In this document: positions 25,741 to 30,947 of the stretch, piece by piece
Numbering within the stretch: position 1 is the stretch's first letter
How the letters are laid out: each line of letters begins with the position of its first letter
NCBI RefSeq assembly: GCF_003018255.1
Contig: NZ_CP027440.1
Length of the DNA: 64,000 nucleotides
Reading direction: 5' to 3' (one strand)
Origin: Escherichia coli
GTDB taxonomy: Bacteria; Pseudomonadota; Gammaproteobacteria; Enterobacterales; Enterobacteriaceae
The notes under the pieces: model-generated
The model's database searches: none
What the model was told of the DNA's origin: nothing
What the model saw: only the letters and a program-made list of their open reading frames with translations
Position numbers and translations under genes: made by a program

Positions 25741-26199
25741 GTGCATATAGATGCGGATTTCATAAGCTTGAGCACATTGGTGGCTAATCAACAAGCTGCA
25801 AAATGGGCGGGGGTTGCTGCTATTGCTGCCTGTTTGACGTTTGTTGTGACAACGATAGGTTTACTACTTGCTTGGCGGTCGTTGCATCAGTGGAAGCCTC
25901 AATACAAAGAAAACTCTAGACTTCTCCTAATCGAAGCTTTAATCGCATTTCAGAAATGTTTAATAACTATACCAAAAAATCTCGATAACGATCCCACCTA
26001 TCAAAGCCGAAAGGAATTTTTGAAGGCAAGTACTGAAGTTGAGCTAAGAGGACAAATATATCTTAAGCAACACAGCAACGAAAAATTAAAAGATGAATTA
26101 GCAAATCTCAGGAGTAAATGTGCAGAATTTGTTGGTGGTAAGGTGACTAAACCTGAACTGTCATTCATCTCAGCAATAATATTACTCATTGAAGTATAA
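25741..26199 (+). CDS. Hypothetical membrane-anchored protein (GTG start)
   Basis: One transmembrane segment AAIAACLTFVVTTIGLLLAW; AT-rich; possibly a fourth gene of the recombinase module. Confidence 0.35.
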   Translation: MHIDADFISLSTLVANQQAAKWAGVAAIAACLTFVVTTIGLLLAWRSLHQWKPQYKENSRLLLIEALIAFQKCLITIPKNLDNDPTYQSRKEFLKASTEVELRGQIYLKQHSNEKLKDELANLRSKCAEFVGGKVTKPELSFISAIILLIEV

Positions 26200-26301: not shown

Positions 26302-27093
26302 TTACATGTTTGCGTCTTTATTTAACGCATATTGCCAGTTAGCTGCATCCAGCTTTCTCAGCAACGCGCAAAGCACATCCACCAGACAGGCGAGGATCCG
26401 CTGGCCTTTTTCCGCCGTGGCGCAGCGCGGATCGCCGGTTGCTCCGGTGGCGCTGATTTCCCCGATATCCCAGATCCGGTTCACGCCATAATCAGCGAAC
26501 ACCTCCACCGGGATCTGTTTCTGCGCATATTTCAGTTCCACCAGCTCCGGAATCAGCGCCATCATGACGGACGTTTCGCCCTCGCCGCCGTGTCCTAGTC
26601 CGGTGTTATCCCATGAGTCGAAAAATCCCTTCCCGAGATGATGTCCCACCAGATCCCACCACGCCGGAACCACGACAATCGCTGCCTGCGTATGTCGGGC
26701 CTTCACATTGCGGGCGGCGATTTCAATCGCCGGAATATTACCGTCATGGCCGTTAATCACCAGGATCCGGCGAATACCGTGGTGCAGCAGGCTGATGAAG
26801 ATATCTTCCGCCAGCGCGATATTGGTCTCGTAGCGTAGGGTGACCGCCAGTGGATAGGCATTGTAGTGAACGGATGTGCCGAACGGCGTGCAGGGCAGCA
26901 CAAGGGTATTATCCACCCGCTGCGCCACCCGGCAGGCGACGATTTCGGGTACAAACATATCGGGGCCGAGTGGCAGGTGATCGGCGTGGTTCTCACAACT
27001 GCCGAAGTTGACGATAGCAGTGAGTTCCTTACCAGACTGCAACAGCTCGCGGATTTCCCGGCCAGTCAGTTCATTGAGCATGACTTTTTTCAT
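26302..27093 (-). CDS. Creatininase-family amidohydrolase
   Basis: Family motif TAIVNFGSCENHADHLPLGPD and LVINGHDGN; start MKKVM with AGGAGG ribosome-binding site. Confidence 0.7.
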   Translation of the reverse strand: MKKVMLNELTGREIRELLQSGKELTAIVNFGSCENHADHLPLGPDMFVPEIVACRVAQRVDNTLVLPCTPFGTSVHYNAYPLAVTLRYETNIALAEDIFISLLHHGIRRILVINGHDGNIPAIEIAARNVKARHTQAAIVVVPAWWDLVGHHLGKGFFDSWDNTGLGHGGEGETSVMMALIPELVELKYAQKQIPVEVFADYGVNRIWDIGEISATGATGDPRCATAEKGQRILACLVDVLCALLRKLDAANWQYALNKDANM

Positions 27094-28429
27094 CGGACAG
27101 CCTCCTGTTTTTTCGGACGACAAAGATGTAGTACGCGCTGGCGAGGGCCAGCCAGATCAGGACGGTAACCAGGGTAATGCCGCCGCCGTCGGTGAAAAAT
27201 TGCCCGGCCATGATCAGCGCAATCAGCCCCACGGTGAGTGGCTGGATGTAGCGGGCGGCCGGAGCCTTGTATTTCAGCGTTCCGTCGTGCAGGGCTATTC
27301 GGTGCAGGGTGGGCTGGCTTAAGGCAATCATCAGCCAGGTGAACAGAAAGCCGAATCCGGAAATCCCGGCGAGGATGACATACGCATCTGGCGAGAGAAT
27401 GGCGATGATGACGCCGGTAAACAGCACCAGGCTGCTGGCAAGAATGGCGTTATCCGGTGTTTTATGTGCCGGGTGCAGGCGGGCAAACCAGGCCGGGAAA
27501 TAGCCGTCAGACGCCATGGCGTGCAGCATCCGCGAGGTGGCGTAAACCCCGGTATCGATGCAGGAGAGCGCGGCGGTCAGCACCACAAAGTTCATGATAT
27601 GCCGCGCCATATGGCCACCGAGAATGCCGGAAGCTTCGACATACGGGCTGCTGCTGACACCTGCCTGCTGCCAGGGGAGAACGAGCAGCAGAACGGTCAA
27701 TGAGCCGACATACAGCAACAGGATCCGCACCACGGTGCCACGCAGCGTACGAGGAATATCACGCTGTGGGTTCTCGCTTTCACCCGCGGCGGTGCCGATG
27801 GCCTCTGTCCCGCCGAAAGAGAAAATCACCATTAACATCGCGCCGAGAAATCCGGGCAGCCCGCCAGCAAAAAAGCTGCCGCTGTCGGTCGGATGACTGA
27901 TGCTGGCGGGTGAGGCGTTATCCAGTCCCAGGCTGTAGCAGCCCGCGACGATAAAGGCCAGCAGCGCCACGACTTTCACCAGGCTCAGCCAGAACTCCAC
28001 TTCACCGAAAAAATGAACGCCGACCATGTTGATGGCAGTCAGCGACGAAGCGATCACCAGGCAAAACAGCCAGACGGGGACTCCGGGAAACCACAGGTTC
28101 AGGAAGGTGCCTGCAGCGATGGCCTCCGACGCCGGGCCAATCAGGAAGGCCAGCCAGTAGGTCCACCCGGTGATAAAGCCACACCATGGGCCAAAGGCGG
28201 TGCGGGCATAGGATTCAAAGGAACCGGAGACGGGCCTGGCGACCGCCATTTCGGCAAGCAACAGCATAATGAACAGGGTGATGACACCGCCGATAAGGTA
28301 GGCCAGCACCACCGACGGCCCGGTACGGGCAATGGCCGCGCCTGCGCCGAGGAAAAATCCGGCACCAATCACGCCTCCCACGGAAATCATCGTCAGGTGA
28401 CGGGCTTTCAGACTTCTGTTGAGTTCCAT
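27071..28429 (-). CDS. Amino-acid permease (APC superfamily)
   Basis: 452 aa with about 12 transmembrane segments; N-terminal LTMISVGGVIGAGFFLGAG is a typical APC signature. Confidence 0.8.
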   Translation of the reverse strand: MELNRSLKARHLTMISVGGVIGAGFFLGAGAAIARTGPSVVLAYLIGGVITLFIMLLLAEMAVARPVSGSFESYARTAFGPWCGFITGWTYWLAFLIGPASEAIAAGTFLNLWFPGVPVWLFCLVIASSLTAINMVGVHFFGEVEFWLSLVKVVALLAFIVAGCYSLGLDNASPASISHPTDSGSFFAGGLPGFLGAMLMVIFSFGGTEAIGTAAGESENPQRDIPRTLRGTVVRILLLYVGSLTVLLLVLPWQQAGVSSSPYVEASGILGGHMARHIMNFVVLTAALSCIDTGVYATSRMLHAMASDGYFPAWFARLHPAHKTPDNAILASSLVLFTGVIIAILSPDAYVILAGISGFGFLFTWLMIALSQPTLHRIALHDGTLKYKAPAARYIQPLTVGLIALIMAGQFFTDGGGITLVTVLIWLALASAYYIFVVRKNRRLSDEKSHAQ

Positions 28430-28472: not shown

Positions 28473-28847
28473 TTATGGCCGTCCCTCCTCAATCAGCAGT
28501 TCACCGTACAGGTCGTGAAGTTTAGGGATTGGGCCGGAGAGATGAACGGCTCCCGAATGGCAGGCATTCAGGCTGCCGTTAAACACCATGGTCAGGTGGC
28601 CAAGTTCAAACAAAGACTGCTGTGCCTCTTTACCCACGGCGGTCACCAGGTAGTCATGGCTCGCCAGCAGCAGCCGATCGCCGGGCAGGATCAGCAGGTC
28701 GTCTTCGCGGAATGAGGGTTCCAGCGACAGGGAATAGTCCAGGCAGTCTTTCGGTCCGTTGCTGTCAAAGGTGATAAGCGTCCTGTCTGCCAGTCCGTCG
28801 GCGACAAACAGCCCGATAGCAACGATGCGTGCGCAGTAGGTCATCAT
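28473..28847 (-). CDS. Hypothetical protein (124 aa)
   Basis: ORF only; adjacent to the permease. Confidence 0.3.
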   Translation of the reverse strand: MMTYCARIVAIGLFVADGLADRTLITFDSNGPKDCLDYSLSLEPSFREDDLLILPGDRLLLASHDYLVTAVGKEAQQSLFELGHLTMVFNGSLNACHSGAVHLSGPIPKLHDLYGELLIEEGRP

Positions 28848-29065
28848 GGCTCGTTCTCCCGTTTGTCGGGCATGAGAGTACGGCCTGGTGTAGGTGAGCA
28901 GGCATGTAGCCTGAATAGGTGAATAAAGCCTTCAGTCCGGGAGGCCGGGTGAAGGTGGCCTCCGGTTGTAAGAGCGATGGAGCAAGGGTGTGGTTCGGTG
29001 TGCATAAACAACTCTCCTGTCAGGTGTCGTTGATTAATGCGTCCTGCCACTCACAGCGCGGGTCG

Positions 29066-29341
29066 TTATGTCCCGGAGTTTTCTGTTGTTGTCATGAGGT
29101 GAAGCGGTTTACGGGGTTCACGTTTATTTCCCGTATTGAGGTAACGTTCCGGCCAGATTTCTGACGGATGCTTTCCCAGCGCAATGGCAATCAGCCACTC
29201 ACCTTTCGGCCACGGTCGGTTCAGGGCATTCGCCAGCGTTGACGAGGCCAGTCCCGCTTCCCGCGAGAGTTTCGCCAGACTGGTGCCGCGCTTGTGTAAG
29301 GCGGCAATGATATCGGCGGGGTGCCAGTCTTTTTTAGTCAT
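29066..29341 (-). CDS. Nlp/Ner-family DNA-binding protein
   Basis: WHPADIIAALHKRGTSLAKLSREAGLASSTLANALNRPWPKGE closely resembles Nlp/Ner. Confidence 0.75.
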   Translation of the reverse strand: MTKKDWHPADIIAALHKRGTSLAKLSREAGLASSTLANALNRPWPKGEWLIAIALGKHPSEIWPERYLNTGNKREPRKPLHLMTTTENSGT

Positions 29342-29978: not shown

Positions 29979-30899
29979 TTATCTATTAGTAGCAACTCTA
30001 TCCGCAGCAGTACGGGTAACTTGATTTCCAACATCCCAGCCGTTTTCATCTGGGAGTGACATCCCATCCATTGGCATTAGGATAAAACCACCAATAGTTG
30101 GTCCAAATGACTCAGTAGTGTTAATTCCTGCATAGCTTGTTCTGATAATATTTTCATTCAAATTGGTCAAAAATGATATTCGAGTACCAAGTGGGTGCGC
30201 GGTTACCATTTGGATGTATCCACCAATAGTATTGACTGTTTCTTGGTTAATCCAATTATTCAAAGCAATAAACGGGGTACGCCACCAATTTATTGTGTTA
30301 GGAGTAAATTGTTGCCTGGTATTCTCTATAAACTCATTAAGTTCATGCAAGTTATCACCTAATAAAACAGGTCTGCCTGTTGATAAATTTTGAATATCTT
30401 CAATCTGGAGGTTGGCTGGGTGCTCAATAGAGTTATTGAGTTTTATAATTTTGTAGGTTTGTGTTCTCCAGCAAAAACCAAAAATTATCATCTGTATTCT
30501 TACTGCTTGGGGAAAGGATTGGCCGATATCAGACATATATTGCTCGGCAATATTTTTTGCTAATGAAGCTATTTCATTAAGACTTGGGAATGCTTCGGTC
30601 GATATTTGTTGTTCTGGATTATTGTTCGCAATCTCATGAAGTCTTGCTAATGATACTGCAAGCATTTCTTTGACATTAATTCCAATCATTGTACTTCCTG
30701 CAAATCCGAAGCCAAATTCGAATATTTTTTGCGGGTGAATTCGATAAACGTCCGAAGAGCGAATAACTGATACGGGGATTGAGAATAATTTCGGACAATG
30801 GTCAGTTAGTCTGCTATTTTGCTGAGTGATTCTTGAGTCGCTGACTGCCCAAATACTATCGCTTTCCTCTCTATTAAACCAACATGCAATTGCGGTCAT
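29979..30899 (-). CDS. Candidate N-terminal-nucleophile hydrolase with proteasome-beta/HslV-like N-terminal region and ~130-aa C-terminal extension
   Basis: From the internal start, M-TAIACWFNREESDSIWAVSDSRIT...FGFGFAGS echoes HslV TTIVSV...VIAGDGQAT...AGFAGG; AT-rich. Confidence 0.45.
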   Translation of the reverse strand: MTAIACWFNREESDSIWAVSDSRITQQNSRLTDHCPKLFSIPVSVIRSSDVYRIHPQKIFEFGFGFAGSTMIGINVKEMLAVSLARLHEIANNNPEQQISTEAFPSLNEIASLAKNIAEQYMSDIGQSFPQAVRIQMIIFGFCWRTQTYKIIKLNNSIEHPANLQIEDIQNLSTGRPVLLGDNLHELNEFIENTRQQFTPNTINWWRTPFIALNNWINQETVNTIGGYIQMVTAHPLGTRISFLTNLNENIIRTSYAGINTTESFGPTIGGFILMPMDGMSLPDENGWDVGNQVTRTAADRVATNR

Positions 30900-30947
30900 A
30901 AGGTTTTTCCAGTTATTTAACATTAATGCGAATAGCTTAGCATATTT

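What the first reader, a model, noticed from the sequence alone, without database searches (positions are those of the whole stretch)
26302..28429. Creatininase-family amidohydrolase with an amino-acid permease as metabolic cargo
An overlapping hydrolase-permease pair sits within the ICE, adjacent to an Nlp-like regulator. This suggests an acquired uptake and hydrolysis pathway (creatinine-like or another cyclic amide) that could give a niche-specific nutritional advantage.
Basis: partly seen in the sequence, partly recalled or inferred. Interest (0 to 1): 0.3.

Follow-up and report, generated by a model that had tools for sequence, protein, structure and literature searches.

The report
Permease–amidohydrolase cargo on an E. 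coli ICE
An E. coli mobile element carries an intact transporter gene coupled to a metal-dependent amide-cleaving enzyme of unknown substrate (probably not creatinine), spliced behind the remnant of a sugar-uptake operon: ordinary accessory metabolic cargo with a mildly interesting mosaic history.

Summary
On the minus strand, a 263-aa creatininase-family (PF02633) gene (26302-27093) overlaps by 23 nt a 452-aa APC amino-acid permease gene (27071-28429). ICE core genes flank them on both sides. The element sits at tRNA-Leu in an E. coli chromosome that matches the window at 100%.

- A third co-directional gene, a PTS IIA(Gut)-like protein (28473-28847).
- The operon is a mosaic. The Ner/Nlp-like regulator, the leader, a deleted IIC relic and the IIA gene come from a gut-type PTS operon. 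That operon is intact in Salmonella and in 134 E. coli genomes. Its IIB and oxidoreductase genes have been replaced here by the permease-hydrolase pair.

The hydrolase keeps all metal ligands and the catalytic His. It fails the curated models for creatininase, MftE and IolN, and has Asp-Gly in place of creatininase Tyr121-Glu122.

Relatives at 41-88% identity, in Bacteria and Archaea, sit directly behind a transporter in many loci. The transporter type varies: NCS1, APC, LIV-type ABC or MetNIQ-type ABC. This supports an uptake-and-hydrolysis module rather than a biosynthetic role. The substrate is unknown.

Intact copies show purifying selection, but only 7 of 5426 E. coli genomes carry at least 80% of the region. 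Interest is low.

The parts
26302..27093 (-). Creatininase-family (PF02633) binuclear-metal amidohydrolase, 263 aa, of an uncharacterised transporter-coupled subfamily
   Evidence: Pfam E=3e-57, residues 18-255 of the long ORF. PDB creatininase 1J2T/1Q3K E~5e-23. Metal ligands E34, H36, D45, H116, E173 and catalytic H168 are invariant in 21 subfamily members and in P. putida creatininase. It scores below the cut-offs of TIGR04448, TIGR03964 and NF041098. AGGAGG lies 7 nt upstream of the ATG.
27071..28429 (-). APC-superfamily amino-acid permease (AAT type), 452 aa; its 3' end overlaps the hydrolase start by 23 nt
   Evidence: PF00324 E=3e-100. Best NCBIfam matches are GABA permease, MmuP, ProY and CycA, all at roughly half their cut-offs. 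dN/dS is 0.06 between ICE variants.
28473..28847 (-). Orphan PTS IIA(Gut)-like gene, 124 aa, first intact gene of the operon
   Evidence: PF03829 E=2e-23. 81% aa identity to the IIA gene of an intact regulator-IIC-IIA-IIB-oxidoreductase operon on Salmonella pS2122_1. No IIB or functional IIC is present here. dN/dS is 0.12-0.22 among three ICE variants that share the IIC deletion.
28848..29065 (-). Leader plus relic of the gut-type PTS IIC gene. About 415 bp of a 522-bp gene is deleted. A 53-codon ORF (29005-28844) retains the IIC 'EGFIHLF' N-terminal motif and the C-terminal end, and overlaps the IIA start
   Evidence: Nucleotide alignment to Salmonella L014. The same 218-bp spacer occurs in three ICE variants. 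Its leader half is invariant and its relic half is substituted. No Rfam match and no unusual fold.
29066..29341 (-). Ner/Nlp(SfsB)-family HTH_35 regulator, co-directional and upstream of the operon
   Evidence: PF13693 E=8e-36; SfsB equivalog model 101 bits against a cut-off of 150. 86.6% nt identity to the regulator heading the intact Salmonella PTS operon.

Best explanation
This is a two-gene uptake-and-hydrolysis module carried as ICE cargo. The APC permease imports a small amino-acid-like nitrogen compound. The cytoplasmic binuclear-metal hydrolase of the creatininase fold cleaves an amide or lactam-type bond in it, giving a product (probably an amino acid) that central metabolism can use. 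In this ICE lineage the pair was recombined into the remnant of a gut-type PTS operon. It is therefore most likely transcribed from that operon's leader, downstream of the Ner-like regulator and an orphan IIA gene.

Shown here:
- gene identities;
- active-site conservation;
- the mosaic junctions;
- recurrent transporter-hydrolase coupling across taxa;
- purifying selection on the genes.

Inferred only:
- the direction of flux (catabolic or salvage);
- co-transcription;
- the substrate class.

The specific substrate is not identified. Creatinine is unlikely.
For: - Family assignments.
- All six catalytic or metal residues are invariant.
- Coupling signals: a 23-nt overlap and an internal Shine-Dalgarno.
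- The permease+hydrolase pair recurs without the IIA gene in other Enterobacterales at 64-78% identity: L003-5, Citrobacter L011 and C. braakii L025.
- In 68 genome loci with an intact homologue (41-78% identity), the gene immediately upstream on the same strand is an NCS1 transporter in 28, a LIV-type ABC permease in 9, and a MetNIQ-type ABC component in 2.
- Extra amidohydrolases accompany it in some taxa: asparaginase with GntR in Mediterraneibacter and Faecalicatena, and an M20 peptidase in Synergistes.
- dN/dS between ICE variants is 0.06 for the permease and 0.08-0.21 for the hydrolase. Neutrality is rejected (p as low as 1e-35) in every comparison except the hydrolase A31-Res13 pair, which has only 5 differences.
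- Mosaic origin.
Against: - There are no expression, transport or enzyme data.
- No consensus sigma-70 promoter was found on the operon strand.
- Different homologues use different transporter families and different second enzymes, so the subfamily may not share one substrate.
- The module is rare in E. coli: 7 of 5426 genomes carry at least 80% of the region. It breaks inside the permease gene in the partial carriers listed, by IS150 in strain D7, and is decayed in Edwardsiella. Selection for it is therefore at best conditional.
- The host ICE has a truncated integrase and a topoisomerase III pseudogene.
Confidence: 0.65

Rival explanations
1. It is a genuine creatinine module. The permease takes up creatinine (or creatine), and the enzyme is creatinine amidohydrolase (EC 3.5.2.10), useful in gut or urine where creatinine is abundant.
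For: Same Pfam family, with the best PDB matches being creatininases. All metal ligands and the catalytic His are kept, and the residue equivalent to Trp154, and probably Trp174, is kept. The host strains are of human and animal origin. Distant homologues pair with NCS1 transporters.
Against: TIGR04448 scores 97.3 bits against a cut-off of 235. Only 32% identity to P. putida creatininase. Tyr121-Glu122 are replaced by invariant Asp117-Gly118. The Ser78 loop is 5 residues shorter, and there are two further deletions. The residue roles come from my knowledge of the creatininase structure papers. No creatinase or sarcosine-utilisation gene is in the element, so creatine would be a dead end (inference). 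The transporter here is an amino-acid permease.
Confidence: 0.1
2. It is a biosynthetic or maturation enzyme of the family, such as an MftE-like peptidase or an ArfB-like formamide hydrolase, and the neighbouring permease is incidental.
For: MftE (TIGR03964) scores almost as well as creatininase, 93.5 against 97.3 bits. Archaeal homologues in Nitrososphaerales lack an adjacent transporter.
Against: The MftE score is below its cut-off of 172. No mftABCD-like genes are nearby. The gene is translationally coupled to a transporter here and in dozens of unrelated genomes. E. coli makes riboflavin through GTP cyclohydrolase II and does not need ArfB (established knowledge). No ArfB model or sequence was available for a direct test.
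Confidence: 0.04
3. It is a hitch-hiking recombination scar. The operon is a chance fusion of fragments that is no longer expressed or useful in E. coli and is on its way to loss.
For: The structure is mosaic, with a deleted IIC gene and an orphan IIA. The partial carriers listed break inside the permease gene, by IS150 in D7. The pair is truncated in Edwardsiella. The DNA downstream of the hydrolase differs in every variant. The ICE integrase is truncated.
Against: All three open reading frames are intact in three variants that diverged after the IIC deletion. dN/dS is 0.06-0.22 and neutrality is rejected in most pairwise comparisons, while the IIC relic itself accumulates substitutions. The leader half of the spacer is 100% conserved.
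Confidence: 0.15

Closest known systems
Creatinine amidohydrolase CrnA of Pseudomonas putida (PDB 1J2T/1Q3K; EC 3.5.2.10; TIGR04448)
   Same: Same fold family (PF02633). It has the same binuclear-metal ligand set (E34, H36, D45, H120, E183) and catalytic His178. Trp154 is kept. Length is similar, about 260 aa.
   Different: 32% identity, and 97 bits against a cut-off of 235. Tyr121-Glu122 become Asp-Gly. The Ser78 loop is shorter by 5 residues, with two further deletions of 4 and 6 residues. It is paired with an amino-acid permease and no creatinase.
Other characterised creatininase-family enzymes: MftE (mycofactocin peptidase, TIGR03964) and IolN (3-dehydro-scyllo-inosose hydrolase, NF041098)
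   Same: Detectable homology: E=1e-26 and 4e-19.
   Different: Far below the curated cut-offs (93.5 against 172; 68.9 against 245). There is no mycofactocin or inositol gene context.
Transporter-plus-cyclic-amidohydrolase salvage modules, for example the NCS1 hydantoin permease Mhp1 with hydantoinase and carbamoylase (from my knowledge of the hydantoin utilisation literature)
   Same: The logic is the same: a dedicated importer directly precedes a ring- or amide-opening hydrolase. Homologues of this hydrolase sit behind NCS1 transporters and sometimes next to an M20 amidohydrolase.
   Different: The hydrolase fold is different (creatininase family, not a dihydropyrimidinase-type amidohydrolase). 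The E. coli version uses an APC permease. No second enzyme is present in the ICE.
Gut-type PTS operon (Ner-like regulator, IIC, IIA, IIB, Gfo/Idh/MocA oxidoreductase) of Salmonella pS2122_1 and an AlpA/DUF927 island in E. coli
   Same: The regulator (86.6% nt), the leader and IIA (81% aa) are clearly the same genes.
   Different: Here IIC is reduced to a 53-codon relic. IIB and the oxidoreductase are replaced by the permease-hydrolase pair, so no sugar PTS can be formed.

Membership tests
Creatininase family (Pfam PF02633) | Full-length match to the family HMM above the gathering score | tested here: met
   194.1 bits against 31.3, E=3e-57, profile positions 2-238 of 238.
Creatininase family (Pfam PF02633) | Binuclear metal ligands (Glu34, His36, Asp45, His120, Glu183) and catalytic His178, P. 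putida numbering | tested here: met
   They align to E34, H36, D45, H116, E173 and H168. All are invariant in 21 subfamily members plus P. putida. The residue roles come from my knowledge of the structure papers.
Creatinine amidohydrolase, EC 3.5.2.10 (NCBIfam TIGR04448 equivalog) | Score at or above the curated equivalog cut-off | tested here: not met
   97.3 bits against a cut-off of 235.
Creatinine amidohydrolase, EC 3.5.2.10 (NCBIfam TIGR04448 equivalog) | Substrate-pocket residues Ser78 loop, Tyr121, Glu122, Trp154, Trp174 | tested here: not met
   Tyr121-Glu122 become invariant Asp117-Gly118. The Ser78 loop has a 5-residue deletion. Trp154 is kept (W146). Trp174 is kept only in the MAFFT alignment (W161, with a 3-residue insertion) and not in the phmmer alignment.
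Creatinine amidohydrolase, EC 3.5.2.10 (NCBIfam TIGR04448 equivalog) | Hydrolyses creatinine to creatine | not testable with these tools
   This needs an enzyme assay.
MftE mycofactocin peptidase (TIGR03964) | Score at or above the cut-off, and mftABCD neighbours | tested here: not met
   93.5 bits against 172. No radical-SAM or mycofactocin genes are in the element.
IolN 3-dehydro-scyllo-inosose hydrolase (NF041098) | Score at or above the cut-off | tested here: not met
   68.9 bits against 245.
ArfB archaeal formamide hydrolase | Orthology to MJ0116, in an organism using GTP cyclohydrolase III | not tested
   No ArfB model or sequence was available in the tools. It is argued against only by context: the transporter coupling and the E. 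coli host.
APC superfamily, amino-acid transporter (AAT) type (PF00324) | Full-length match to AA_permease | tested here: met
   336 bits, E=3e-100.
Specific characterised permeases (GabP, MmuP, ProY, CycA, AroP and others) | Score at or above the equivalog cut-off | tested here: not met
   The best is GabP TIGR01773, at 347 against 678. All others are also about half their cut-offs.
PTS glucitol-family enzyme IIA (PF03829) | Domain match | tested here: met
   82.6 bits against 25. 81% identity to the IIA of an intact gut-type PTS operon. 36% identity to E. coli SrlB.
PTS glucitol-family enzyme IIA (PF03829) | Works with cognate IIB and IIC partners encoded in the same operon | tested here: not met
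   IIC is a deletion relic and IIB is absent. The SrlB equivalog model scores 77.7 against 165.
PFGI-1/pKLC102-type ICE cargo | Located between ICE core genes of an element integrated next to a tRNA gene | tested here: met
   TIGR03745-03759 ICE proteins, TraD, MobH relaxase and the conjugative ATPase lie on both sides. tRNA-Leu and an integrase pseudogene are at the left end.

The most novel reading that the evidence does not exclude
The hydrolase belongs to a deeply conserved (Bacteria and Archaea), frequently transporter-coupled clade of the creatininase fold. The clade has its own pocket signature (NGHDGNI, GLGHGGEGETS, TGATGD) and a substrate that matches none of the activities compared here for this family, which would make it a new catabolic reaction. 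In the E. coli ICE, the retained orphan IIA(Gut), which is under purifying selection although its IIB and IIC partners are gone, has been co-opted to couple uptake of this nitrogen compound to the PTS phosphorylation state, in the manner of inducer exclusion.
Probability: 0.12. Interest if true: 0.5.

Novelty: new member of a known kind. Interest (0 to 1): 0.22.

Why it matters
The practical value is modest. It corrects a likely over-reading of the 'creatininase' label: the enzyme should not be counted as creatinine degradation in E. coli or in gut metagenome pathway profiles. It also flags a widespread, uncharacterised, often transporter-linked clade of the family whose substrate could be found with a simple screen. 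The mosaic gives a clean, datable example of how ICE cargo operons are assembled, by recombination into the leader of an unrelated operon that leaves an orphan PTS component still under selection.

Tried and rejected
- Literature searches for 'creatininase family' with permease, for PF02633, for creatininase gene clusters, and for gut creatinine degradation found nothing that characterises this subfamily.
- The ICEEc2 paper (PMC2944505) is not held. The creatininase structure papers are not in the library either, so residue roles rest on memory. One partial check is possible: the E122Q variant is visible in PDB 3A6J.
- I tried to locate the IIA(Gut) phospho-histidine from the literature without success. 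Three His residues are invariant between this IIA, the Salmonella IIA and SrlB, so phosphorylation competence is undecided.
- The conserved leader has no Rfam match, and its RNA fold is no better than shuffled sequence (z=-0.9). A riboswitch or sRNA reading was dropped.
- The consensus scans found no sigma-70 promoter on the operon strand. The minus-strand terminator-like hits lie inside genes and are no more frequent than in shuffled sequence.
- The plasmid collection holds no copy of the pair.
- Neighbourhood analysis did not converge on one second enzyme, so no substrate could be assigned. Ideas such as hydantoins, carboxymethylhydantoin or N-blocked amino acids remain guesses.
- No structure prediction was run, because the sequence evidence for the fold was already decisive.
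Full report
**Observation**

The window is 100% identical over the tested 3.4 kb to the chromosome of E. coli JNE23-011 (NZ_AP045067.1). ORF listing and the RefSeq annotation agree on two minus-strand genes:
- a creatininase-family CDS at 26302-27093 (263 aa);
- an amino-acid permease CDS at 27071-28429 (452 aa).

The genes overlap by 23 nt. An AGGAGG Shine-Dalgarno sits 7 nt before the hydrolase ATG, inside the permease gene.

Pfam gives PF02633 at E=3e-57 over the whole profile and PF00324 at E=3e-100.

ICE core genes flank both sides: TIGR03745-03759 proteins, TraD, the MobH relaxase and the conjugative ATPase. The element abuts tRNA-Leu(CAA) at 590-674.

Directly upstream, on the same strand, lies a 124-aa PTS IIA(Gut)-like gene (28473-28847; PF03829, E=2e-23). 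After a 218-bp spacer comes the Ner/Nlp-family regulator (29066-29341; PF13693, E=8e-36; SfsB model 101 bits against a cut-off of 150).

A weak plasmid hit led to Salmonella pS2122_1. There the same regulator heads an intact operon: IIC, IIA, IIB, then a Gfo/Idh/MocA oxidoreductase.

Alignment with that operon shows:
- the regulator is 86.6% identical at the DNA level;
- IIA is 79.6% identical in nucleotides and 81% in amino acids;
- about 415 bp of the 522-bp IIC gene is deleted in the window.

The deletion leaves a 53-codon ORF (29005-28844). It still reads 'EGFIHLF' at the IIC N-terminus and ends at the IIA start. Homology to Salmonella stops at the IIA stop codon. Where Salmonella has IIB and the oxidoreductase, the ICE has the permease and the hydrolase.

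The intact PTS operon occurs in 134 of 5426 complete E. coli genomes. In the one inspected it lies in an AlpA/DUF927 island, not in this ICE.

The ICE operon is therefore a recombinational mosaic. The 'adjacent Nlp-like regulator' belongs historically to the PTS remnant, not to the permease-hydrolase pair.

**Is the mosaic alive?**

Three ICE variants carry the identical 218-bp spacer architecture, so they diverged after the deletion. They are the window, strain A31 and strain Res13-Lact-ER01-35.

| Gene | dN/dS between variants |
|---|---|
| Permease | 0.06 |
| Hydrolase | 0.08-0.21 |
| Orphan IIA | 0.12-0.22 |

Neutrality is rejected in every comparison for the permease and the IIA. For the hydrolase it is rejected in two of three; the A31-Res13 pair has only 5 differences (p=0.098). 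The lowest p is 1e-35, and the IIA values are 0.001-0.02.

Within the spacer, the leader half is invariant and the IIC-relic half carries most of the substitutions.

Several facts point the other way:
- Only 7 of 5426 E. coli genomes have a match covering at least 80% of the 3.4-kb region, and the other 36 have shorter matches.
- The nine partial matches listed all begin inside the permease gene. In strain D7 the break is an IS150 insertion that also removed the hydrolase.
- The Edwardsiella copies are truncated.
- In the window strain the ICE integrase is truncated and topoisomerase III carries an internal stop.

Selection on the module is real but evidently conditional.

**What the hydrolase is**

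Against solved structures, the best matches are Pseudomonas creatininases (E~5e-23) and two 'putative' ones. A 22-sequence alignment shows the metal ligands and the catalytic His (E34, H36, D45, H116, E173, H168; P. putida E34, H36, D45, H120, E183, H178) to be invariant.

The pocket differs from creatininase:
- Tyr121-Glu122 are an invariant Asp117-Gly118.
- The Ser78 loop is 5 residues shorter.
- Two further deletions of 4 and 6 residues occur.
- Trp154 is kept.
- Trp174 is kept only in the MAFFT alignment, not in the phmmer alignment.

The roles assigned to these residues come from my recollection of the creatininase structure papers, which the library does not hold.

Curated NCBIfam equivalog models all fail:

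| Model | Score (bits) | Cut-off (bits) |
|---|---|---|
| Creatininase (TIGR04448) | 97.3 | 235 |
| MftE (TIGR03964) | 93.5 | 172 |
| IolN (NF041098) | 68.9 | 245 |

So the protein is a member of the family but of none of its characterised specificities that could be tested. ArfB could not be tested directly.

**Comparative context**

The protein database holds over 1400 relatives at E<=1e-10. The top 120 are 50-94% identical and come from Enterobacterales, Campylobacter, Desulfovibrio-like bacteria, Firmicutes, Synergistes and Treponema.

Contig look-ups, together with a scan of 100,044 species genomes followed by my own ORF calling and clustering (Pfam check), give a consistent picture. Many loci have a transporter gene immediately upstream of the hydrolase on the same strand, often overlapping it.

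Among 68 loci with an intact homologue, the upstream gene is:
- an NCS1 transporter in 28 (Campylobacter, Morganella, Serratia, Budvicia, Cupriavidus, many Clostridia, Synergistes);
- a LIV-type ABC permease in 9 (Bathyarchaeota/Thermoproteota, Atribacteria and Bipolaricaulota/Acetothermia);
- a MetNIQ-type ABC component in 2 (a Lachnospiraceae genome and Asaccharospora).

In Acetobacterium a class-I glutamine-amidotransferase-like gene takes that place.

The closest enteric relatives (64-78% identity; Citrobacter and the low-GC L003-5 contigs) have the same APC permease and no IIA gene.

Additional amidohydrolases appear in some lineages: asparaginase with a GntR regulator in Mediterraneibacter and Faecalicatena, and an M20 peptidase with a LIV-type ABC system in Synergistes.

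Repeated, independent coupling to importers of small nitrogen compounds argues for uptake followed by hydrolysis and against a biosynthetic role. The variety of transporters and second enzymes means the substrate cannot be read off, and it may differ between lineages.

**Mechanism proposed**

The permease imports an amino-acid-like amide. The binuclear-metal hydrolase opens an amide or lactam bond. The product enters amino-acid metabolism.

In this ICE, expression is probably driven from the captured PTS leader downstream of the Ner-like regulator. Genes, residues, junctions, coupling and selection are shown here. Flux direction, co-transcription and substrate class are inferred.

Creatinine is unlikely, for three reasons: the failed model and motifs, no creatinase in the element, and creatine being of no known use to E. 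coli. The last point is an inference from established E. coli metabolism.

I put 0.65 on the generic uptake-hydrolysis model, about 0.1 on creatinine, about 0.04 on a biosynthetic role, and about 0.15 on a silent scar.

**Novelty and verdict**

RefSeq already annotates the genes as 'creatininase family protein', 'amino acid permease' and 'PTS glucitol/sorbitol transporter subunit IIA'. The finding is therefore ordinary ICE cargo of unknown substrate.

What this analysis adds:
- the third gene and the mosaic origin;
- the failure of the creatininase-specific tests;
- a widespread uncharacterised clade that is often transporter-coupled.

This is a new member of a known kind, and interest is low (0.22). 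The most novel reading not excluded is a new catabolic specificity whose uptake is tied to PTS state through the retained orphan IIA. I rate it at about 0.12 probability.

Noticed in passing
window 28955-29065 (leader half of the regulator-IIA spacer): About 112 nt, including a short upstream ORF start (ATG at 29005), are 100% identical in three ICE variants that differ by 4-6% elsewhere, and nearly identical to the Salmonella PTS operon leader. This suggests a conserved operator or leader element. There is no Rfam match, and the fold is no better than shuffled sequence.
   Followed up: partly
window 26302-26330 and downstream to 25741: The last ~10 codons of the hydrolase and everything downstream differ in each ICE variant: a 139-152 aa hypothetical here, a PaiB-like FMN-binding regulator in A31, and a SAM methyltransferase in Res13. 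This marks a recombination hotspot at the gene's 3' end.
   Followed up: partly
window ~897-2144 and ~45886-47691: The ICE tyrosine integrase next to tRNA-Leu is annotated as truncated (C-terminus missing), and the ICE topoisomerase III carries an internal stop. The element is probably immobilised in this strain.
   Followed up: no
window ~15.4-25.5 kb: The same cargo patch holds a tyrosine invertase followed by a chaperone-usher fimbrial operon (possibly phase-variable). A serine recombinase and two ParB/RepB-like genes follow it.
   Followed up: no
window ~53-60 kb (GC 0.32-0.36): A sharply AT-rich block lies beyond the ICE core. It carries a DUF262/DUF3696 pair, two hypothetical genes and a Dcm-type methyltransferase, with a Vsr endonuclease gene just beyond it (~60.5-60.9 kb). 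It looks like a defence islet between the ICE and the nanS/nanM region.
   Followed up: no
window 29979-30923 (-) and 25741-26199 (+): These two hypothetical ORFs flank the operon region and have no Pfam match (the 314-aa one has only a marginal NCBIfam hit). The 314-aa one sits in a 38% GC patch between the HTH_3 pair and the conjugative ATPase. Variants carry other genes at that position (a RES-domain protein in A31, a DUF4145 protein in the L106 contig).
   Followed up: no
L008/L044, L043, L047, L051, L052, L055 (Mediterraneibacter, Faecalicatena and related Clostridia): A recurrent asparaginase-NCS1-hydrolase cluster, preceded by a GntR regulator in Mediterraneibacter and followed by AroM in L008. 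It is the richest context for guessing the subfamily's substrate, and these genomes are relatives of the orotate-fermenting Faecalicatena orotica.
   Followed up: partly
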